Shown: in pieces, positions 1,013-12,215 of the stretch
Layout of the letters: every line of letters begins with the position of its first letter
Numbering within the stretch: the stretch's first letter is position 1
Source of the DNA: a virus
UHGV virus genome: UHGV-0246522
Length of the DNA: 12,770 nucleotides
Strand: one strand, 5' to 3'
The notes under the pieces: model-generated
Seen by the model: only the letters and a program-made list of their open reading frames with translations
Told to the model about the DNA's origin: nothing
Database searches by the model: none
Position numbers and translations under genes: made by a program

Positions 1013-2170
1013 ATGCTCACCGTTAAGCAGATTGAAGCAGCAAAGCCGAAAGAAAAACCATACCGCCTTCTCGATGGTAATGGCCTGTACCTTTATGTCC
1101 CTGTATCCGGGAAAAAGGTATGGCAGCTTCGCTACAAGATTGACGGTAAGGAGAAAATCCTGACCGTCGGAAAATATCCGCTTATGACTTTGCAGGAGGC
1201 AAGGGATAAAGCATGGACCGCGAGGAAAGACATCTCGGTTGGTATCGATCCGGTAAAAGCGAAAAAGACTTCGTCTAACAACAATTCCTTTAGCGCCATT
1301 TACAAGGAATGGTACGAGCACAAGAAGCAAGTCTGGTCAGTAGGCTATGCAAATGAACTTGCAAAAATGTTTGACGACGACATTTTACCTATCATTGGCG
1401 GCCTTGAAATTCAGGATATTGAGCCGATGCAACTGCTGGAAGTAATCCGCAGATTTGAAGATCGCGGTGCAATGGAGCGAGCCAACAAAGCCCGCAGAAG
1501 ATGCGGCGAGGTTTTCCGTTACGCTATTGTCACTGGTAGGGCTAAATATAACCCGGCACCTGACCTTGCTGACGCCATGAAGGGATACCGCAAGAAGAAC
1601 TTCCCGTTTCTTCCAGCAGACCAGATCCCTGCATTCAACAAAGCACTGGCAACATTTTCAGGAAGTATCGTATCGCTCATTGCGACCAAAGTTTTACGCT
1701 ACACAGCCCTAAGAACGAAAGAGCTTCGTTCCATGCTATGGAAGAACGTCGATTTTGAAAACAGGATTATCACCATCGACGCCAGTGTGATGAAGGGACG
1801 CAAAATTCATGTGGTCCCGATGTCGGACCAGGTGGTTGAACTTCTCACTACGCTAAGCTCCATCACTAAACCAGTATCAGAGTTTGTTTTTGCCGGGCGC
1901 AACGATAAGAAAAAGCCAATTTGCGAGAACGCGGTGCTACTTGTGATCAAACAAATCGGCTATGAAGGTCTGGAAAGCGGTCACGGATTCAGGCATGAAT
2001 TCAGCACGATTATGAACGAGCACGAATGGCCTGCTGATGCTATTGAAGTGCAACTGGCACATGCCAACGGCGGATCTGTGCGTGGGATTTACAACCATGC
2101 TCAGTATCTCGATAAGCGCAGAGAAATGATGCAGTGGTGGGCGGACTGGATTGATGAGAGGGTGGCATAG
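1013..2170 (+). CDS. intS: Tyrosine site-specific integrase (IntS-like, argW-specific)
   Basis: 385-aa product from ATG 1013 (MLTVKQIEAAKPKEKPYRLLDGNG...), which I recognise as the CPS-53 IntS-type integrase. Position next to the tRNA and the C-terminal R..HGFRH..Y-type catalytic region support this. The track's upstream GTG at 977 would add 12 aa. Confidence 0.9.
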   Translation: MLTVKQIEAAKPKEKPYRLLDGNGLYLYVPVSGKKVWQLRYKIDGKEKILTVGKYPLMTLQEARDKAWTARKDISVGIDPVKAKKTSSNNNSFSAIYKEWYEHKKQVWSVGYANELAKMFDDDILPIIGGLEIQDIEPMQLLEVIRRFEDRGAMERANKARRRCGEVFRYAIVTGRAKYNPAPDLADAMKGYRKKNFPFLPADQIPAFNKALATFSGSIVSLIATKVLRYTALRTKELRSMLWKNVDFENRIITIDASVMKGRKIHVVPMSDQVVELLTTLSSITKPVSEFVFAGRNDKKKPICENAVLLVIKQIGYEGLESGHGFRHEFSTIMNEHEWPADAIEVQLAHANGGSVRGIYNHAQYLDKRREMMQWWADWIDERVA

Positions 2171-2304
2171 CGCCACCTATAAACCGTGCAATAATCAAAC
2201 TCACATCGCATCGTTGATGATGTATGTTATCACTCCTAATGCAGCAGATGTCTCACAGAGGGCGCCATTCTGCAACCAATCCATTCCCAATTTATCAGAT
2301 TAAC

Positions 2305-4395
2305 CTACATATTCACGCATGATATATGCTCAATAATCACTGTCATCCGCCCGCTTGCAGCGGTGGTTCCAGCGATTTTTTTTACAACTAAATTGTTTTC
2401 AGCAACTGTGACCACGATAGATCCAACGTTTGTTTGTGTTTTTACTCCAGCGACTGATTCTATATAATATGGCAATGATAACCCGAAGAACCAGTATCCT
2501 TCTGTGAATAGCTTTGCTGCATGCTCATCCCTGTTTGAGTTATACATTACAGATATTTTTACTGCCGTTTTTCCATTTGTTGTCTTTATTGGTATTAAAA
2601 GTGTTGTAGATTCATTTTCAGCTACGTCTGCAGTTACTGCATAGATGCGTTGAGATGTATCGGAATTTACGTTAGTTAGCGTATCAAACCCTCTGCAATT
2701 ACTTACTTGACGAAATAAAACATCAAGAAAAGTTGTAACCCCTGGCAATGGGTCAAGATAATACAATGGTGCGATATTTCCATCGCCAAGATTGAGGTTT
2801 TGCACCCGTACTATAGCCTTCACATACGCAGAGGAACCTCTGCTTATTTGAATTACAGCAGTTGGCACCGTTCCTGCCATTCCTGACGACTGAATGTTTC
2901 TGAAGATAACCTCTTTGAAGAGATATACATTAAAATTTGTGTTTCCTGTATTGCTATACAGAAATCCAACATTCTCTATTATGGCATTACATTTTATATT
3001 TTCAGCAATGTAACCATCATATGTATTCGGCGAGTTATTATAAAATGATACCAGACGAGAGATAATATCTGACGGATCTTCGCAGTTGACGTCAATATTT
3101 CGCAAAGAAATACCTCGAAATGTCGGTGCTCCACTGACAAGACCACCTGAAACGATTGACTGTGGGGCTGCTCCGTCAGCATAGAAGCAACTAAGTCCGT
3201 CTAGAGAACCTCCTGCCTGCAAGTCTACTGCTGACTGCCCAGCAGCAACAGCAAAGGCCTGTGTGCGCCGCTCTACAATATTGCTCACCCGAGAGTTCAT
3301 TATCTGTGATTTGACTGATCTCTTCTGGCAGTCTTCAAAATACGAATCACTAATATCAAATACTGCTGATAAATAGTTAGGGGATGATGCATATATCCCA
3401 TCCGCATCCTGATATGGTCCAACTCGGAATACTGAAATATTCCTAACATAGCAATATTCAAAGTTTTGAACCATAAACCCGCGACCAACATTAGAACCAC
3501 CTGAGCTTGAAATATCATAAGCTGAGGAATCTGACAGCCTAATCTCTTTCCATCTAAACAATGAGCCTGCCGTAATATATGCAGCAGTTGATAATCCTGT
3601 GTCAATTGCTTCCCTAGCGTTTCTTCCAGAATAGCCTGAAATAGATATTTTTGCGTTGTTATCGGATGAAAGCGCATAGAGTAGCTTTGCAGCATTGTTC
3701 TTGCCGTCAATGGCAATATCCTCTATGGAAAGAACGGATGAGCACGTTATTTTTAAAACAAATGGACTTACTGCTCCAGTATAGATAATAGTTCCATTTC
3801 TTATTGTTGTTTTTTTGTTGAAAACAACACTAATCATCTCGCTTGTTTTAATTGTCATTCCAGACAGGTCGATAACATACCCATCATATCTATTTAGCAA
3901 ATAGATTAATTTTTCTCCTTCATCTGTCCCATCACCAGTTATTCCTGCCGATGATGGCGTAACATAATATATAGCACTTTGAACTGTTCCACCCTGCTGA
4001 AGGGGGATCATATCCGCACCTTTTCCTTTTCCTGTGGATGTAATTTCCTTCCTTAACTGATCAGGGTCGTATTTCAGCACATTAGGGAAATAAAACTGCT
4101 GCGCACCATATGCATCATAAATAGCCATAGAGTGGCCTTGCACAGTTACGAACTTGGCAATCTGTCCGTTATATACAGGATAACCAGCGGCGTTAATGAT
4201 GATTGGCTGCGAAACAGGAACGTGAGAACCATCCTCATTCTCCACATAAACCTGAATCTGGTTTTCAGGATTTACCGGGTCAGTGTCAATTTTTCCTATA
4301 TAAATTTTGCCATTGGCTACGGCTTTAAAAGAACGAGCCATAGTGAAGAGTTGCGAAGGCATCGATACGATCACATTGGCTGTAATGTCTGTCAT
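2305..4395 (-). CDS. P22-like tailspike protein: conserved N-terminal head-binding domain, divergent receptor-binding domain
   Basis: N-terminus [58 protein letters not shown]...[13 protein letters not shown]...NVLKYDPDQ matches the head-binding domain of P22 gp9, Sf6 and HK620 tailspikes as I recall them. The remaining ~580 aa are Gly/Ser/Asn-rich, consistent with a beta-helix. GGAG lies 9 nt upstream of the ATG. Confidence 0.85.
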
Positions 4396-4495: not shown

Positions 4496-5398
4496 TCAGT
4501 AGTTATGTACTGAAGGAGGTAATTCTTTATTCTTAAGTCTCATCCATGCGGAAAGATTCGTTGGTCCGTCTGGCTCATTAATATCAACATCTCGTGTGTG
4601 GTTTATTAAAACGTCTCTCGCCATTCCGATAACATACGAGAACTCATGACCGTAGTCGTAGCATCTGCCGGAATAGTTCGATTGAATTTGTTTTAGCGCC
4701 GGATACAGTTCGCGGAATAATGCCTGTGAGCGGTTGGCATAATCCCATAACCATACAAGGCTGTTTGCTTCTTTTGCAGAAAGCTCGTTGGTTTTCTTCT
4801 CTTGTTTGCCGATGAACTCGCCTTCAAGCACTACCCTGTGGATGTACTCTACTGCTTGCGGTATCTGAGATGAATCAAGCTCTTCAATACTTTCCACGTT
4901 GAAACGCTGATGAATCATTGCATAAGCTTCTGGGTACATTAGATGCTTTTTGCTGACTAGCATATTTACAGCATCACGAAGCGGAGTCCTGTCATCAACA
5001 GATGTTTTCTTACGTGCATTTTCTGCCTTTCCCTTCGTCCAGTAGTCATGCAGCACAGTAAAGCATTCTTCCTGGTACTGAATCAGTTTATCGCGGATGT
5101 CAGCACGAACTTTCTCAGGGTTGATGCTGAACAGCCATCCATTTAACTTCTTCAAAGGAAGGCAGAGTAGCTTACGAAGCTTACCATCAGCGGCAACCAT
5201 GTTCATATGAACATGGTTGAATTTGCTAATCTGCTTCATGAGTTTTGTTTGCTGCGTTGACCAGCTCATTCCAAGGTTTTCAACGATTGGCTTCATCGCA
5301 ACATATGCAACTCCGGCAGTCATGGCGGTGATAATCTGCTGACCATTGAAAGGTACGTAAGAGGTGTTCACTGCTTCTAAAATTGCTATACTATTCAT
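4496..5398 (-). CDS. ant: Antirepressor Ant (P22 immI-type)
   Basis: 300-aa product from the ATG at 5398 with GGAG 9 nt upstream; lies directly downstream of arc and upstream of the tailspike gene, as in P22 immI. The track ORF starts 22 codons further upstream with no support. Confidence 0.85.
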
Positions 5399-5399
5399 G

Positions 5400-5468
5400 T
5401 TGGTTTTTCTCCACGAATTTACTGACAACAGAAGCCCTGACTGTTCCCGCAGTTGGGGCTTCAACTTT
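5400..5468 (+). ncRNA. sar: sar-like small antisense RNA covering the ant ribosome-binding site and the arc-ant intercistronic region
   Basis: Plus-strand promoter inside the ant 5' end (-35 TGTTCA 5365-5370, 16-bp spacer, -10 TATACT 5387-5392). The predicted ~69-nt transcript is antisense to the ant SD and start and ends after a hairpin (GAAGCCC 5431-5437 pairing with GGGCTTC 5456-5462). This matches what is known of P22 sar. Confidence 0.4.
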
Positions 5469-5628
5469 ACGCGCCAATACGCCCTTCCTTCTTAAAGCTG
5501 TCCATTACTCTCTGATAAATCTCAGAGTTAACAGACCGACCATTCTCTTCCGCCACCTTGCGTACCAAATCCAATACTTCTTTAGGCCACCGCAAATTGA
5601 ACTGCGGCATTTTGCTCATTCCTTTCAT
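5467..5628 (-). CDS. arc: Arc repressor (ribbon-helix-helix)
   Basis: 53-aa product [53 protein letters not shown], nearly identical to P22 Arc as I recall it. The track ORF start at 5691 falls inside the arc operator and is rejected. Confidence 0.9.
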
Positions 5629-5718
5629 GTTCACCTCACAATATAGGTCCACGGTGGACCTATTGAGAATATAGTAGAGTGCTTCTATCATGTCAATACA
5701 CTAACTTGGAGTGATGGC
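5629..5718. promoter_or_regulatory. immI control region: mnt operator, arc operator, divergent Pant (minus) and Pmnt (plus) promoters
   Basis: Perfect 21-bp palindrome ATAGGTCCACGGTGGACCTAT at 5643-5663 (P22 mnt operator type) and ATAGTAGAGTGCTTCTATCAT at 5671-5691 (reverse complement of the P22 arc operator as I recall it), lying between divergent arc and mnt. Confidence 0.75.
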
Positions 5719-5973
5719 ATGGCTAGAGATGATCCGCACTTTAACTTCCGCATGCCTTTGGAAGTAAGAGAAAAATTAAAATACAGAGCAGAGTCAAATG
5801 GTAGATCAATGAACTCAGAATTGTTGCAAATCGTCCAAGATGCTCTATCGAGACCATCTCCTGTAAAAGGTTATCGCAATGAAGCTGAACGATTAGCCGA
5901 GATGCAGGCTGAACAGTTCAAGTCTGTGGTATTTGAGACACTTAAAAACATGTATGGCAAGGATGCAAAATGA
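5719..5973 (+). CDS. mnt: Mnt repressor (maintenance of lysogeny, Arc/MetJ family)
   Basis: 84-aa product MARDDPHFNFRMPLEVREKLKYRAESNGRSMNSELLQIVQDAL..., clearly homologous to P22 Mnt; divergent from arc-ant. Confidence 0.9.
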   Translation: MARDDPHFNFRMPLEVREKLKYRAESNGRSMNSELLQIVQDALSRPSPVKGYRNEAERLAEMQAEQFKSVVFETLKNMYGKDAK

Positions 5974-6551
5974 TCGATTACAACCCAGCAAAAAAAGAAA
6001 TCATCGCAGCTAAAAAGTGCCTAGAGCAGATGAAATCATCTACAAACCATGATGATTTTGAAATGCACTGGCGAGAATGTCTTGGGCATATAGAAAAGTC
6101 TTTCAGTAAGTTGCTCTGTGCAACAAAGCCGGTTAGTGGAAAATTTAGCAGCCACTTCAACCAAAAGTTCATGCTTAGAAAAACAGACAAAACACTTGCT
6201 TACCTTCACCAAGCAAGAAATGCTGATCATCATTCCACTATGGAAATCTCAAAACTTGAACCTCCTTATACTACTCTTGGGGCATTTCCGGGAGCAAGAA
6301 GCCATTATATTAAAGAGTTAATCATTGATTCAACAGGGAAAATAGCAAAATACGAAGGCGACCCTATGATAGTTGAGTTTCATCCAGCAACAACTATGCC
6401 TATAACCGTAAGAAACCAAGGCAAAGATTATCCACCTCCAACAGAACATCTTGGCGAAAAGCTTGTTGATATACATCCATCTGTTCTTGCCTATCTCGGT
6501 ATACAATTTTATGAAAAATGGATAGATGAGTCGTGTGCAACGTTTAGATAG
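5970..6551 (+). CDS. Hypothetical protein, translationally coupled to mnt (candidate accessory gene)
   Basis: 193-aa ORF whose ATG overlaps the mnt stop in an ATGA arrangement (5970-5973), with an AAGGA SD 8 nt upstream inside mnt. No family recognised by eye. Confidence 0.6.
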   Translation: MIDYNPAKKEIIAAKKCLEQMKSSTNHDDFEMHWRECLGHIEKSFSKLLCATKPVSGKFSSHFNQKFMLRKTDKTLAYLHQARNADHHSTMEISKLEPPYTTLGAFPGARSHYIKELIIDSTGKIAKYEGDPMIVEFHPATTMPITVRNQGKDYPPPTEHLGEKLVDIHPSVLAYLGIQFYEKWIDESCATFR

Positions 6552-6768
6552 TTATTTTTGATAATTTCAAGTATTTCCTCTTGACTTTGATTTACCCAAA
6601 CGTGATCACACTCATGAAACCAGATTATGCTTCCTGTTTCGCCTTGTGCAATATAGGTGATCATGTTTTCATTAACAATTATTACTGAGTTATCATGTGC
6701 GCAATTTAGTTTTATCAATTCGCATATCCTATCGTGACAAAGTAACTAGAAAAACTAAAGAGGTTGGT

Positions 6769-7263
6769 GTGTCTGATTCTATGAGTTACGCTGTGCTAGT
6801 TGCCGCAACTCTATTTATGGGGATAGGGTTGCAGATTGCGTGGTTCTTTTTTTCTAGTTTTATTAAACGCAAAAGAATTGAATCAAGGATATCTGAGATT
6901 TCTATTGCTATAGGGAAAAATGCTGAAAATCCAGAGAATGAGACCTGCGCACTGAATTACCTTAAAGAAAAGTTTTCCCCTGAAAAATTTGAAAATAGAA
7001 TTACTGATGCTCTTGGATTGGTAATATCAGTAATTCATATGCCACTAAGTTTGCTGATAACAGTGTGGTACTTCGCCATGATCGCCGGAAGAATATTTGG
7101 TTTCATGAATATAGAGCCTGTAGTTCTTTGGGTTCCAATGATACTGCAACTGTTGTTAAGCGTTGCTATCTTTATTTTTTCTGTTTTTATAAAAATTGTC
7201 TTTGGAAGATACCCCGGAGAAGCTAAGGGATTTAATAAAGAATTCATAAAAACTATAAAATAA
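6769..7263 (+). CDS. Small inner-membrane protein with three predicted TM helices, in the position P22 uses for sieA (putative superinfection exclusion protein)
   Basis: GTG at 6769 is 5 nt after AAGAGG; an alternative ATG lies at 6781. Three hydrophobic segments ([82 protein letters not shown]). Located between mnt and the gp16-like gene. The 6697 start in the track has no RBS. Confidence 0.55.
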
Positions 7264-7285
7264 ATGCCGTCCTTGGCTTACAGTG

Positions 7286-9127
7286 CTACTGCCGGGTCGC
7301 TTCGTTAGCTAAGAGCGGGCGCACGGCAGTAGCAGCCTGATTTAGCGCTCTTTCATAAGCTGGCGTTCCAGCTTTAGTGTTTGCCAGACGTAAGAGCGCA
7401 TTCCTTGCTGCTTTGGACTCATACAAACGCATCATTGCACCAAAACCAGCCTCAATCCCCATTGATACTCCAAGAGTCGCAGTTGCGCCAATCGTCCTTA
7501 TCCTGTTGGCTTGTGATTGTCCCGTCTGAGTTACTACATTTGCGGTGTCTGACCTTGTTGTTTGCTGTAGAACTTCATGAAGAGCATCGAGCTCTTTCAT
7601 GTGCTTTCCAGAAAAAATAGTGTTGTAAATTTCACCGCCTGACTGAGATTTAAGCTTATTAACTTCAGTGATGAACTTGGCTGGAGAGTCACCGGCCTTT
7701 TCCGCTATTTTGCTGACGTAAGCTGCACGCATAGCATCTTTCCCTTTATCATCCAATGCGCTCCAGATTCGTTTCACGTCAGATGGTTTTCTGCTTAATA
7801 CAACGGTATTTATAAGTTCAGGACTGGCTTCACTGCTTGCCTTGTTGAGCTTGTTGGCAATGTTTTTATTAAGCACCTTATTATAAACGTTTGCATAATC
7901 GGAATTTGCTTTAAGGTATTTTGCTGCGTCTGATGCACCGAGGTTTTTAGCAACTGCGTTACGAAGGTCTTTTGACATTGCATTCTCTACCATATTGGTA
8001 GCTGCTTTTGCCTGGTTGGGGAAGACCATAGCATCTCCCTGAACATTAGATCTAAATGCAGTTCTGTGCTGACGCAAGAGATCAAACGTAACATCCAAAT
8101 CAGTTGCAGGGTTTGCTAATTCTTCGCGTAGGTTACGCAAGGATGTAAGCAGGCTTTGATTGGCAGACGTCCCAAGCCGTTCCTGTCTTGCGATCGCTGT
8201 ATTCAGAGCATTCATAGTGTTTGTGGTATCAACTGCGGCATTCCCCATTTTATTGGTGACGTCATTGATAACAGCGCCAGCGGCATCCTTCCGTCCCCTT
8301 AACGTGGTGGTCAGAGATTTCACCACATCATCCGGGTTGTACTCACCAAAACGGTCAAAATAATTACTTACCAACTTACTACGCGTTGCATATTGCTCCG
8401 CTCGCTTTGAGCCTGTCCCGAGCAAAGCCCCCTCGGCATCCTGAGTAAGGCCGCGAGTGAAAGCATTTTTCGGCGGGATAACATCAGATGTCATTGGTGT
8501 CACGCCCATCGATTCTGATGTGGCAATTTTCTTCGCCACTTCTGGCGCAATATCACCTTTTATAGCCGTTATTCCACGCCCTATTCCCTTTGCTGCTGCG
8601 GAAAGAACCCCCTGAGCGGCAAGGTTAACTCCGGCATTTTTAGCTGCATTTTGTGCGAAATCGCCTTTCTGATTTGCGGCCTCTGCCAGTGATCCAATAG
8701 CCATGCTTCCTGCCGTTCCAACTCCTGGAACTAAATACCCACCAATTGTTTCACCGGCTTGTGCGTATGGGTCTGTCGGTCTGTCTACTGGACGATAAAC
8801 ATCATCCAAAACCTTGGGTCCACCAAGCCCCTGACTGATTGCATTAATCAGACTTGCGCCGCCCTGCAATACGTCAAATGGTATGTTTACCAGACCACGA
8901 CCAGCCTGCTCTGCAATTTGCCCTGCACTTTGACCACCTGTGAGCCAATCGCCAGCTTGTTGCATCAATGATGGTTCTTCACGTGCTGGTTCATTATTGG
9001 CCTGATTAACTGTTTGTTGCTGAACAGCCTGACCAGCAAAATACTCATCAATGGCGGTGCCAATATCTTCCGTGCTCGTACCATCAGGGAAGGTAAATGT
9101 CTTACCGTTTGCAGTTACTTTCATCAT
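7286..9127 (-). CDS. Ejection (DNA transfer) protein, P22 gp16-like
   Basis: 613-aa product starting [33 protein letters not shown], Ala/Gly/Asn-rich, in the gp16 position after the gp20-like gene and before the sieA-like slot; its start overlaps the upstream stop (ATGA at 9124-9127). Confidence 0.8.
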
Positions 9128-10077
9128 TCCACCGTAAATTGAATGCCTGATTTTGAGGTATATGATCCAACCTGATTCCGTGGTTCTCCTGAAGGTGTCG
9201 AATCTTGTGCTGGCGCTGCGTCAGTATTCATTGACATATACCGCTTAACGGCACTCCCCAATGATTCACCTTTTTTAACATCCAACCCCAATATCTGACC
9301 GCCATTACGCGATTGTCCAGGGTTGCCATTCGCGCTCATCCACTCGGCTTTAAACTCATTAAACTGCGCGTTTCGTCGCTCAAGGTTTGCCATTGCATCA
9401 AGCCATCTTGCTACCGTCTCAGGGTTATCCATGTCAGTTGGAGCACCCTGTCGAACGATCTCAACGTCTTTATCCGTTGCGGGGCCGGGAGGTAGGAATT
9501 TAAGAACCTGACTGTTAACAAGGGCATTTTGGCGGATGCGCAAATCACGCAATGTTGTATCGCTTCCGGTAAGTTTTGCGAACATGTTCTGTGCGTTACC
9601 GAACAAACCTGTCGTTGGTTTTTCTGCTCTGAACTGTTGAGCAAGCGCACTCATAGAATTGGCTGAGTTTGATGATGCTGTAGCATTGTTTACAGCCGTC
9701 TCGATGCCTTTTTCCATGTTTACTGACAGCTTAGGTGCTTCGCTAATCAACTGCTGAGCCTTTTCCTGTGCTTGCTGCATCTTAAACCCGAACTCTTGCT
9801 GATCCAGAGCCAAGCGTTGTGCTGCGATATTGTGCCCAGTCATTGCTGACTGATAGGAAAGGTTTTGCCCTCTCGCCTGAAGTGCTTCTCCAGCCTGATT
9901 GCTGCGGATTGTCTCTGCCAGTTTGCCTCGGTCAATTTCACGACCAGCCATCTTGTCCTGAACAGCAAACGCCTTTTCTGGTCCAAGCGCACCGAGAGAC
10001 ATAGTAGTCAGCATGTGTGATAGCTGCTCTGGATTCTGGATACCTGTCTGAATCATCCAGTCAGCATTCGCCCCCAC
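9124..10077 (-). CDS. C-terminal portion of an ejection protein (P22 gp20-like); reading frame interrupted upstream
   Basis: 317-aa ORF (GTG at 10077) ending in ATGA overlap with the gp16-like start. Upstream of about 10135 this frame becomes Cys/Trp-rich and non-protein-like, while the adjacent frame becomes protein-like, indicating a frameshift. Confidence 0.6.
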
Positions 10078-10082
10078 GCGAT

Positions 10083-11253
<1,171 letters not shown>

Positions 11254-11375: not shown

Positions 11376-11657
11376 GTGAGCGATAAACAAGAAGTTTCCT
11401 TAGCACATATCAATGATGTGCTGGAGTCCAAAAATTATATTGAAACTAATGCTGATGGGGTTGTAACCATCGGAACGGATAACAATGGCTACGAAGTTTT
11501 TAACTTCGTTTTTCTCAATAGCACCCCTGTCATCGGCCATATGAATGGCGAAATCGCAGTGGCAGGAATGCAGCGCACTAAGGTTGCGTCCGTGACTTTA
11601 AGTAAACAGAAGGCCTTCGATTTCTATCAGTCCTTGAAAAGCATGTTCGAGGAATAA
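11376..11657 (+). CDS. Hypothetical 93-aa soluble protein, first gene of the cassette in the rexA-rexB slot
   Basis: GTG start with AGGAG 7 nt upstream; no hydrophobic segment; the DNA looks AT-rich compared with the flanking cI; no resemblance to RexA. Confidence 0.6.
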   Translation: MSDKQEVSLAHINDVLESKNYIETNADGVVTIGTDNNGYEVFNFVFLNSTPVIGHMNGEIAVAGMQRTKVASVTLSKQKAFDFYQSLKSMFEE

Positions 11658-11663
11658 AAGCTG

Positions 11664-12215
11664 ATGAATGCAGCTCAATCATCTTTGGATGAGGGAAAGC
11701 TAGTAATTGCTTACTCTGATAAGAATGGCTCTACAGTAGGGCTGGAATTTTCTTCTGTAGCATCAAGCCAAGCAACGCTCTTGATGAAAGCTTGTTCTGT
11801 TGCTGCTTCAGATAAAGAAAAACGGATTGTCACATCGGTTGTGATGGATGATACTGAGATCATTCAAACAACAAGTGATGATGGAGGCGACGACATGGAT
11901 AAGCGATTAGCAGTTCTTGAAGCTGAAGTTGCGCACATCAAGAGCAGCATGACAGGAATTAAAGAGGATACCCGGAAAATATCTTCTGATTCTACTGACG
12001 CCAAAAGAGACACCGCTGTACTTTTACAGAAGAGCCTGGATTTTGATGCTTCATTATCTAAGAAACCATCGGTTGACTACTTTGAAGCTAAATTTTCCGC
12101 TTTGGAAACCAAGATAGCAGATGTAAAAGTATGGATGCTCGGGGTTCTCCTGGCCTCGCTTGCTATGCCAACTATATTTTTCCTAATAAACTTGTACCTT
12201 AAGAAAGGTCAGTAA
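11664..12215 (+). CDS. Hypothetical 183-aa protein with acidic/coiled-coil-like middle region and a single C-terminal transmembrane anchor, second gene of the rex-slot cassette
   Basis: ATG 6 nt after the upstream stop. C-terminus VKVWMLGVLLASLAMPTIFFLINLYLKKGQ is a typical tail anchor; the preceding region LAVLEAEVAHIKSSMTGIKEDTRKI has a heptad-like pattern. No resemblance to RexB. Confidence 0.6.
   Translation: MNAAQSSLDEGKLVIAYSDKNGSTVGLEFSSVASSQATLLMKACSVAASDKEKRIVTSVVMDDTEIIQTTSDDGGDDMDKRLAVLEAEVAHIKSSMTGIKEDTRKISSDSTDAKRDTAVLLQKSLDFDASLSKKPSVDYFEAKFSALETKIADVKVWMLGVLLASLAMPTIFFLINLYLKKGQ

What the first reader, a model, noticed from the sequence alone, without database searches (positions are those of the whole stretch)
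5970..7263. Accessory genes co-oriented with mnt: a translationally coupled 193-aa ORF and a 3-TM membrane protein in the sieA position
Seen in sequence: the mnt stop overlaps the ATG of a 193-aa ORF (ATGA at 5970-5973) that has an internal SD, so it is very likely translated with the lysogen-expressed Mnt repressor. About 220 bp further on, a small gene encodes a three-TM membrane protein. Both read in the mnt direction, opposite to the flanking ant and gp16-like genes, and both look AT-rich. Established knowledge: in P22 the interval between gene 16 and mnt carries the superinfection exclusion gene sieA, and lysogeny-maintenance operons are typical sites for defence genes. Inference: the membrane protein may be a SieA-type injection blocker and the 193-aa protein an unrecognised lysogen-expressed accessory function, possibly working with it.
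Basis: partly seen in the sequence, partly recalled or inferred. Interest (0 to 1): 0.7.

Follow-up and report, generated by a model that had tools for sequence, protein, structure and literature searches.

The report
P22 sieA plus HEPN-like prophage gene
In this E. coli P22-like prophage, the membrane protein is the already known injection blocker SieA, and the 193-aa gene fused onto the mnt repressor gene belongs to a large unstudied protein family that looks like a toxic RNase (HEPN) of the kind prophages use to abort other phages' infections.

Summary
The mnt stop overlaps the ATG of a 193-aa ORF (ATGA, 5970-5973; AGGA 6 nt upstream). A 3-TM protein gene follows 217 bp later, and both are AT-rich.

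The membrane protein is not new. It is a type-A SieA, 91% identical over all 164 residues to P22 SieA, with the FxRYPxEAxxFNK motif. Its likely start is GTG 6769, as in P22.

The 4-nt coupling to mnt-type genes is kept in E. coli, Citrobacter and one metagenomic contig. More distant homologs are single genes in prophages, small plasmids and defence-like islands. ORF193 occurs without sieA in 9 of 21 E. coli genomes, so a joint function is not supported.

Best reading: two independent lysogen-expressed defences, SieA and a candidate stand-alone HEPN abortive-infection RNase. The RNase function is inferred, not shown.

The parts
5645..5691 (+). Mnt operator (5645-5667) and Pmnt (5663-5691), overlapping the Arc operator and the divergent Pant
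   Evidence: Positions transferred from the annotated P22 record BK000583 (offset). The region 5639-5725 is 85/87 bp identical to P22. The promoter scan finds TTGAGA-17-TATCAT at 5663-5691 (+) and TTGACA-17-TATATT at 5696-5668 (-).
5719..5973 (+). mnt, an 84-aa Arc/RHH repressor with the Mnt C-terminal domain
   Evidence: Pfam Arc E 2.8e-27 and Repressor_Mnt E 3.4e-11. 92% DNA identity to P22 up to position 5900.
5960..5973 (+). Translational coupling site: SD AGGA (5960-5963) and the ATGA start/stop overlap (5970-5973)
   Evidence: Read directly from the sequence. The same AAAATGAT(C/T)GATTAC junction is found behind four other Arc/Mnt-type genes, 27-43% identical to this Mnt where measured.
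5970..6551 (+). ORF193: soluble 193-aa protein, candidate stand-alone HEPN-like RNase, sitting where P22 has orf59a
6216..6233 (+). Codons for R83-N-A-D-H-H88, the Rx4H motif at the C-terminal end of helix 74-88
   Evidence: Across 114 homologs: R83 99%, position 84 is N/H/D in 113 of 114, D86 98%, H88 100%. Helix boundaries. The motif's position matches the HEPN description in PMC3710099.
6552..6768 (+). 217-bp AT-rich spacer with no recognisable intrinsic terminator and only a weak promoter-like site (6668-6696, 8/12 matches)
   Evidence: The P22 mnt terminator and PsieA lie in the part of P22 that is not homologous to the window. No Rfam family matches here.
6509..6718 (-). Convergent 69-aa ORF (TTG start) overlapping the ORF193 3' end by 43 nt; doubtful as a gene
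   Evidence: Homologs exist only in the 94-100% identical copies of this module. All 5 SNPs in its non-overlapping part are non-synonymous, and TTG becomes ATG in 3 copies. RefSeq does not annotate it.
6769..7263 (+). sieA: type-A superinfection exclusion protein, 164 aa, GTG start as in P22, three TM segments
   Evidence: 91% identity over 164/164 aa to P22 SieA. 92.6% DNA identity from 6751 onward. phrog_7745 E 6e-106. Motif [13 protein letters not shown] at residues 145-157, three hydrophobic segments, and GTG in both phages.

Best explanation
The interval is the accessory arm of the immI region of a P22-like E. coli prophage. It carries two independent lysogen-expressed protective genes.

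(1) sieA (6769-7263) is a true ortholog of P22 sieA. Its product is a 3-TM inner-membrane protein. In P22 it blocks DNA delivery by P22-like phages at the gp16/gp20 ejection conduit.

(2) ORF193 (5970-6551) is an inserted accessory gene (a 'moron') that replaces P22 orf59a. It is transcribed from Pmnt and translated by coupling to mnt, so it is made whenever the Mnt repressor is made.

The ORF193 protein is soluble. It has a HEPN-like helical core whose Rx4H motif (R83...H88) ends core helix 3. A beta-rich insert of about 75 residues and a closing helix follow the motif.

The proposed mechanism is inferred, not shown. ORF193 would be a latent, metal-independent RNase. During infection by a heterologous phage it would be switched on, plausibly through the beta-rich insert, and would cut tRNA or other RNA to abort the infection. 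The prophage-encoded stand-alone HEPN protein HepS works this way.

Shown: gene structure, homologies, the conserved coupling, the conserved motif, the predicted fold and the genomic contexts. Inferred: RNase activity, defence role and trigger.
For: SieA:
- 91% identity over the full length to P22 SieA.
- The family motif and three TM segments are present.
- It lies between the gene 16 and gene 9 homologs.
- Function is known from PMC10883804.

ORF193 expression:
- ATGA overlap plus a Shine-Dalgarno sequence.
- The coupling is conserved behind Arc/Mnt alleles only 27-43% identical to this Mnt, and around ORF193 homologs only 60-62% identical.
- Pmnt/Omnt is 85/87 bp identical to P22.
- The SNP pattern indicates purifying selection.

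HEPN reading:
- R83 99%, position 84 is N/H/D in 113 of 114, and H88 100%. This is the Rx4-6H signature with a polar residue after the R.
- The motif lies at the end of helix 3, where PMC3710099 places it. A beta insert directly after the motif is also seen in Csx1.

Conflict-system context:
- Homologs are opposite-strand single genes in prophage tail and lysis regions.
- Two lie on small Acinetobacter plasmids beside Fic and BrnTA.
- Others lie in islands with helicases, a Ymh-type HEPN gene, a PIN toxin-antitoxin pair, DpdA, an SMC-like ATPase, IS elements and an integrase.

Precedent: the stand-alone HEPN prophage defence HepS (PMC13043305).
Against: - No profile match to any Pfam HEPN family, for the window protein or for any of 114 relatives.
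- No match in NCBIfam, PADLOC or PDB sequences.
- hhalign against one Ymh-type HEPN protein gave no signal.
- Foldseek against the PDB found nothing significant; the best E-value was 0.85.
- I could not superpose coordinates to confirm that R83 and H88 fall on the catalytic R and H.
- The helix-2 acidic residue (E49 in 77% of the family) is L in this protein.
- A second nearly invariant histidine (H160) together with D73 and D86 could instead form a metal site.
- There is no expression or phenotype data.
Confidence: 0.55

Rival explanations
1. ORF193 has a helical-bundle plus beta-domain fold but is not a HEPN RNase. Its conserved D73, D86, H88 and H160 could form a metal or ligand site for some other activity, for example an anti-defence factor, a modifying enzyme or a binding protein that benefits the lysogen.
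Confidence: 0.25
2. ORF193 is the toxin of a toxin-antitoxin-like pair. Its partner would be either Mnt, an RHH protein encoded just upstream with overlapping codons as in classical type II systems, or the small convergent ORF (6509-6718) that overlaps its 3' end. The pair would stabilise the prophage or immI region rather than, or as well as, defending against phages.
For: The RHH gene overlaps by 4 nt, and this is conserved across diverged lineages. In at least 8 alphaproteobacterial loci a conserved small convergent gene overlaps the 3' end of the homolog. The window has a 69-aa ORF in the same geometry, with ATG instead of TTG in three copies.
Against: Mnt is a true P22 Mnt ortholog with its own known job, and its operator is conserved. 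The homologs examined that are 47-48%, 38-41% and about 30% identical have no RHH gene called or annotated directly upstream and are solo genes. ORF69 has no homolog outside the module, is unrelated to the alphaproteobacterial partner, and shows no sign of purifying selection.
Confidence: 0.1
3. ORF193 and SieA form one two-component exclusion system, with the soluble protein assisting or regulating the membrane blocker.
For: The two genes are adjacent, co-oriented and possibly co-transcribed, since no terminator lies between them. They co-occur in 12 complete E. coli genomes.
Against: 9 of the 21 E. coli genomes with ORF193 lack this sieA, and 7 of 18 sampled module copies lack it. P22 and many other prophages have sieA without ORF193. 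P22 sieA alone, in single copy, is sufficient for exclusion. Distant ORF193 homologs never sit next to a sieA.
Confidence: 0.05

Closest known systems
P22 SieA (type A superinfection exclusion protein; Leavitt et al. 2024, PMC10883804)
   Same: The window protein 6769-7263 is 91% identical over all 164 residues. It has the same GTG start and the same position between genes 16 and mnt/9. It has three TM segments and the FxRYPxEAxxFNK motif.
   Different: It sits in an E. coli prophage rather than in a Salmonella phage. The upstream DNA, including the P22 PsieA promoter, is replaced: homology starts only 18 bp before the start codon. Its promoter here is therefore unknown, and read-through from Pmnt is possible.
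P22 orf59a (59-aa ORF between mnt and the mnt terminator; phrog_3202)
   Same: Same slot: the gene directly downstream of mnt, in the mnt transcription unit.
   Different: There is no sequence relationship. ORF193 is three times longer. It overlaps the mnt stop, whereas orf59a starts about 100 bp after mnt. No terminator is visible after ORF193.
HepS of Salmonella prophage Gifsy-1 (stand-alone HEPN abortive-infection anticodon nuclease; PMC13043305)
   Different: No sequence similarity to any PDB chain was found, and HepS structures are reported as deposited. I could not confirm that HepS is in the PDB copy searched. ORF193 has a beta-rich insert of about 75 residues after the motif. Its trigger, oligomeric state and RNA target are unknown.
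HEPN toxins of HEPN-MNT (HepT) toxin-antitoxin systems and other HEPN domains (PDB 4nqf, 7ae2, 8xdj, 5yep, 1wwp, 1wol)
   Different: Sequence identity is 7-11%. There is no nucleotidyltransferase antitoxin gene next to ORF193. 'MNT' in those systems is a minimal nucleotidyltransferase and has nothing to do with the P22 Mnt repressor encoded upstream here.
AbiV and other single-gene HEPN Abi proteins (AbiD/F, AbiJ, AbiU2)
   Same: Stand-alone defence proteins of about 200 aa with a HEPN fold, carried on mobile elements.
   Different: No Pfam or PADLOC match to any of them. AbiV typically lacks the H of the motif, whereas H88 is invariant here.

Membership tests
SieA, type A (P22-like superinfection exclusion protein) | [quoted passage not shown] | tested here: met
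   150/164 residues identical (91%), no gaps, E 2e-113. phrog_7745 'SieA-like' E 6e-106.
SieA, type A (P22-like superinfection exclusion protein) | Three predicted transmembrane segments with no N-terminal extension | tested here: met
   Kyte-Doolittle scan gives three hydrophobic segments, about 5-32, 78-113 and 114-150, in a 164-aa protein. P22 SieA is described as 162/164 aa with 3 TM segments.
SieA, type A (P22-like superinfection exclusion protein) | Conserved cytoplasmic motif FxRYPxEAxxFNK at residues 145-157 | tested here: met
   [13 protein letters not shown] at residues 145-157. Motif as given in PMC10883804.
SieA, type A (P22-like superinfection exclusion protein) | Located in a P22-like prophage between the homologs of genes 16 and 9 | tested here: met
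   The gene-16 homolog is at 7286-9127 (phrog_770), the tailspike at 2305-4395, and ant/arc/mnt lie between them.
SieA, type A (P22-like superinfection exclusion protein) | Blocks DNA injection by P22-like phages | not testable with these tools
   Needs plating and K+ efflux assays.
HEPN superfamily (ORF193) | Conserved Rx4-6H motif with a polar residue (N/D/H) right after the R | tested here: met
   R83 is R in 113 of 114 (plus 1 K). Position 84 is N in 102, H in 9 and D in 2. H88 is H in 114 of 114. The spacing is x4. Criterion from PMC3710099.
HEPN superfamily (ORF193) | Motif located at the end of core helix 3, at the start of the connection to helix 4, in a four-helix (two alpha-hairpin) core | tested here: inconclusive
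HEPN superfamily (ORF193) | Profile-level sequence similarity to an established HEPN family | tested here: not met
   No Pfam hit for the protein or for 114 relatives at E up to 1. None in NCBIfam, PADLOC or PDB sequences. hhalign against a Ymh-type HEPN protein gave probability 1%. HHpred against all HEPN profiles was not available.
HEPN superfamily (ORF193) | Second conserved acidic residue in helix 2 (often Ex3[KR]) | tested here: inconclusive
   Position 49 in helix 2 is E in 77% of the family but L in the window protein. D73 (98%) and D86 (98%) are the conserved acidic residues.
HEPN superfamily (ORF193) | Metal-independent RNase activity that depends on the R and the H | not testable with these tools
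   Needs biochemistry.
Type II toxin-antitoxin pair (RHH antitoxin + toxin) | The toxin family is consistently paired with an adjacent cognate antitoxin gene | tested here: not met
   The pairing with an Arc/Mnt gene is found only in the enterobacterial immI clade. The homologs examined at 47-48%, 38-41% and about 30% identity are solo genes.
HepS family (stand-alone HEPN defence of Gifsy-1) | Sequence homology to HepS (STM14_3211) | not tested

The most novel reading that the evidence does not exclude
ORF193 founds a previously unrecognised clade of the HEPN superfamily. It is a widespread family (about 1,770 clusters at 50% identity, from Enterobacteria to Alphaproteobacteria, Acidobacteria and Cyanobacteria) of roughly 195-aa stand-alone RNases with a beta-rich sensor insert directly after the catalytic Rx4H motif. 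These act as single-gene abortive-infection defences. In P22-like prophages the gene has been wired into the mnt repressor operon by translational coupling. In Alphaproteobacteria it comes with a conserved small convergent partner gene.
Probability: 0.4. Interest if true: 0.65.

Novelty: new variant of a known kind. Interest (0 to 1): 0.45.

Why it matters
The sieA half adds nothing new, apart from showing that type-A sieA is exchanged as a cassette whose own promoter region is not conserved.

The ORF193 half offers a concrete, cheap-to-test candidate for a new single-gene anti-phage defence. The family has about 1,770 clusters and no annotation in Pfam, NCBIfam or PADLOC. It has a high-confidence predicted structure, two obvious catalytic residues to mutate, and a native expression context (Pmnt) that is one of the best understood promoters in phage biology.

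If confirmed, it would extend the recent finding that stand-alone HEPN proteins are prophage defences. It would also mark the mnt-downstream slot of P22-like prophages as a defence hotspot.

Tried and rejected
- Homology of ORF193 to known families: Pfam, PHROGs, PADLOC and NCBIfam gave only an unnamed PHROG. Scanning 114 relatives and several fused or longer relatives gave no informative domain.
- tblastn of ORF193 against 50,697 phage records found no hit.
- The family profile against PDB sequences gave only chance hits.
- Foldseek against the PDB found nothing significant. The afdb50 library was unavailable.
- hhalign of the family against a Ymh-type HEPN protein found next to a homolog gave no signal.
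- I tried to fetch HepS from the Gifsy-1 (LT2) record for a direct comparison. No ORF with the reported R100-H105 motif is there.
- I looked for the P22 mnt terminator and PsieA in the window. They fall in the non-homologous segment. No terminator and only a weak promoter-like site are present.
- I tested whether the minus-strand 69-aa ORF is a gene. It has no homolog outside the module, no family match of note, and an uninformative SNP pattern. It is left as doubtful.
- Full-text literature searches for the RefSeq protein accession and for HEPN in P22-like prophages found nothing on this family.
- The 'works with SieA' idea and the Mnt-as-antitoxin idea were rejected on distribution grounds.
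Full report
**Setting.** The window is an E. coli chromosome segment with a P22-like prophage next to yfdC and a tRNA gene (annotated tRNA-Arg in the matching RefSeq genome).
- Gene order: intS (977-2170), tailspike (2305-4395, -), ant and arc (4496-5628, -), mnt (5719-5973, +), a 193-aa ORF (5970-6551, +), a membrane-protein gene (to 7263, +), then homologs of ejection genes 16 and 20 on the minus strand.
- Rfam finds the P22 sar antisense RNA at 5399-5466 and the tRNA at 777-848.
- The window is 92% identical to phage P22 over 5401-5900 (end of ant, arc, the divergent promoters, most of mnt) and 92.6% identical over 6751-7387 (sieA and the end of gene 16). The 850 bp in between are unrelated to P22.
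- In that position P22 has orf59a, the mnt terminator and the sieA promoter.

**Observation.**
- The TGA of mnt overlaps the ATG of ORF193 (ATGA, 5970-5973), and AGGA lies 6 nt upstream.
- The next gene begins 217 bp after the ORF193 stop if the GTG at 6769 is used. P22 also has GTG at the aligned position, and a GAGG lies 5 nt upstream. Leavitt et al. note that the P22 start codon is itself uncertain, giving 162 or 164 aa.
- The longer ORF from GTG 6697 that RefSeq annotates in some genomes is probably an over-extension.
- The protein has three hydrophobic segments.
- GC content drops to 0.39 (ORF193), 0.33 (spacer) and 0.35 (sieA), against 0.44-0.47 in the flanking phage genes.

**The membrane protein is SieA.**
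- It is 91% identical to P22 SieA over all 164 residues, without gaps, and matches the PHROG 'SieA-like' family at E 6e-106.
- It carries the FxRYPxEAxxFNK motif at residues 145-157, which Leavitt et al. describe as the most conserved feature of the three SieA types.
- It lies between genes 16 and 9, as all examined sieA genes do.
[quoted passage not shown] Escape mutations map to gp16 and gp20, and the protein works in E. coli.
- This half of the finding is therefore right but already known.
- One small difference: homology to P22 begins only 18 bp upstream of the start codon, so the P22 PsieA promoter is not present. I found no intrinsic terminator between ORF193 and sieA, and only one weak promoter-like site (6668-6696, 8 of 12 matches). 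Read-through from Pmnt is possible but untested.

**ORF193 is a real gene made with Mnt.**
- The P22 Pmnt/Pant/operator region is 85/87 bp identical in the window. The annotated P22 Pmnt maps exactly onto a promoter-like site at 5663-5691.
- The ORF193 module (about 5933-6771) is present in 21 of 5,426 complete E. coli genomes at 99.3% identity or more and in 15 IMG/VR viral contigs.
- In those copies it follows Arc/Mnt-type genes that are 100%, 43% or 33-34% identical to this mnt. All share only the last dozen codons and the same ATGA overlap.
- The overlap is also kept in a Citrobacter koseri siphovirus-like prophage and in a metagenomic contig, where the ORF193 homolog is only 60-62% identical.
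- Among 18 module copies, the variable sites in ORF193 are 10 synonymous to 8 non-synonymous, which indicates purifying selection.

**What ORF193 is.**
- It has no match in Pfam, NCBIfam or PADLOC. Its only family match is an unnamed PHROG. It has no tblastn hit in 50,697 phage records.
- A word-indexed search found only seven related clusters. An exhaustive profile search found 1,772 representatives at E up to 0.001, and 1,296 at E up to 1e-10, nearly all 170-220 aa. All that carry a name are 'hypothetical protein'.
- Genome hits include Alphaproteobacteria (many), Halomonas, Cellvibrionaceae, Klebsiella, Acinetobacter plasmids, an acidobacterium, Synechococcus and a planctomycete.
- With 114 homologs as the alignment, AlphaFold2 gives a confident model (pLDDT 94.9, pTM 0.86). 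Helices are at 5-23, 27-51, 53-62, 64-72 and 74-88. A beta-rich region spans 94-154, and a final helix runs 170-191.
- The most conserved stretch is Y78-L-H-Q-A-R83-N-A-D86-H-H88. H88 is invariant, R83 is 99% conserved, D86 is 98% conserved, and position 84 is N, H or D in 113 of 114 sequences. A second motif, P156-P-T-E-H160-L-G162, precedes the last helix.

**The HEPN reading.** Anantharaman et al. define the HEPN active site as Rx4-6H with a polar N, D or H after the arginine. They place it at the end of helix 3, at the start of the link to helix 4. They note that inserts between helices 2 and 3 are frequent, and that Csx1 has a beta-hairpin inserted right after the motif. ORF193 fits each point.
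- It also lists ten more HEPN proteins among the top 60. These include HEPN toxins (7ae2, 8xdj, 5yep), 1wwp, 1wol, 1ylm, 1jog, 2hsb, 1ufb and the sacsin HEPN domain. The first, poorer model gave a similar list.

Against this reading:
- Foldseek against the PDB finds nothing significant.
- No sequence profile links the family to a known HEPN family.
- The helix-2 glutamate found in 77% of the family is leucine here.
- I could not superpose coordinates.

I put the HEPN assignment at about 0.6-0.65.

**Context and function.** Outside the immI clade the homologs examined are single genes.
- Several are opposite-strand inserts between late genes of prophages: next to a tailspike at a prophage end, between tail genes, or between a glycosyltransferase-like gene and the lysis cassette.
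- Two sit on small mobilizable Acinetobacter plasmids beside a Fic protein and BrnT/BrnA pairs.
- Others lie in variable islands. Neighbours there include a DEAD/ResIII helicase, a Ymh-type HEPN gene, a PhdYeFM/PIN pair, DpdA, AddAB-like and SMC-like genes, IS elements and an integrase.
- This is the pattern of a conflict or defence gene.
- A prophage-encoded stand-alone HEPN protein, HepS of Gifsy-1, was recently shown to be a constitutively made, latent anticodon nuclease that a phage tail protein switches on. ORF193 is the same kind of thing by inference, with a different sequence and an added beta-rich insert that could be the sensor.
- I therefore propose that it is a latent RNase made from the mnt operon in the lysogen and activated by an infecting heterologous phage. 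It would complement SieA, which only stops P22-like phages.

**Relation to SieA.** The two genes do not behave as a unit.
- Only 12 of the 21 E. coli genomes with ORF193 have this sieA.
- 7 of 18 sampled module copies lack it.
- Other prophages carry unrelated genes (phrog_2651, phrog_10450) in the sieA slot.
- P22 and its relatives have sieA without ORF193.
- P22 sieA alone is sufficient for exclusion.

**Loose ends.**
- A 69-aa convergent ORF (6509-6718, minus strand) overlaps the end of ORF193 by 43 nt. It has no homolog outside the module and is not annotated in RefSeq.
- In at least eight alphaproteobacterial loci, a conserved small protein with no detectable similarity to ORF69 is encoded in exactly this geometry: convergent and overlapping the 3' end of the homolog. 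It carries the motif ITpEMIEAG...ELREK and has no Pfam match. Whether this points to a partner or antitoxin function is unexplained.
- The prophage in the window appears defective. Genes 20 and 7 are fragmentary, and a lambda-type cro start is fused to a gene-7 fragment. No complete E. coli genome has this junction.

**Verdict.** sieA is already known. ORF193 is most likely a new, sequence-distinct variant of the stand-alone HEPN defence proteins, but its activity is inferred only. Interest is moderate.

Noticed in passing
window 9124-10439 (junction near 10343-10364): The prophage looks defective or mis-joined. The gene-20 homolog is 317 aa, against 459 aa in an intact relative. Only fragments of gene 7 and 36 bp of a gp10-like gene remain. 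The first 26 codons of a lambda-type cro (as I recall the lambda Cro sequence) are fused in frame to a gene-7 fragment (ORF 10083-10439, -). No complete E. coli genome covers this junction. The lysogen-expressed genes (cI, mnt, ORF193, sieA) are intact.
   Followed up: partly
window 11376-11657 and 11664-12215 (+): Two genes lie directly downstream of the repressor gene, which looks lambda-cI-like from my recollection of the lambda sequence; this is where lambda carries rexA/rexB. One encodes 93 aa (phrog_12039), the other 183 aa with a hydrophobic C-terminus (phrog_12602). Both are of unknown function, with no Pfam or PADLOC match. They are candidates for another lysogen-expressed exclusion function.
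   Followed up: partly
window 6509-6718 (-): A 69-aa convergent ORF overlaps the ORF193 3' end by 43 nt. It has a TTG start (ATG in three related copies) and an AGGA 9 nt upstream. There are no homologs beyond the module itself, and 5 of 5 private SNPs are non-synonymous.
   Followed up: yes
L014-L016/L025, L017/L028, L019, L020/L021, L032, L037, L040, L043 (just downstream of the ORF193 homolog in each): A conserved small protein (about 46-115 aa, motif ITpEMIEAG..ELREK.yG....E.V.DvF.AM) is encoded convergently and overlaps the 3' end of the ORF193 homolog by 15-150 nt in alphaproteobacterial loci. Most of the motif lies outside the overlap, so this is a separate gene. It has no Pfam match. 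It may be a partner or antitoxin in that clade.
   Followed up: partly
window 5933-6771, compared with L002-L004 and L050-L064: The ORF193 module is at least 99% identical in prophages whose mnt genes are only 33-43% identical to each other. The module boundaries lie inside the last dozen or so codons of mnt and at the start codon of the gene in the sieA slot. This suggests recent cassette exchange by recombination at these short shared ends.
   Followed up: partly
L003 5091-5459 and L004 4765-5157: In related E. coli prophages the sieA slot downstream of ORF193 holds unrelated small genes: 122 aa (phrog_2651) and 130 aa (phrog_10450), both of unknown function. The slot is variable and may hold alternative exclusion genes.
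   Followed up: partly
window 2170-2305, compared with L002 1875-4614: intS is followed directly by the tailspike gene. The otherwise similar prophage of strain YA-1 has three O-antigen glucosylation genes (gtrA/gtrB-like yfdG and yfdH, plus a glucosyltransferase) between them.
   Followed up: no
L018 6013-6891: In one soil metagenome contig the ORF193 homolog sits immediately downstream of a Ymh-family (PF09509) protein, an established HEPN family. A DEAD/ResIII helicase, a PhdYeFM/PIN pair and DpdA are nearby.
   Followed up: partly
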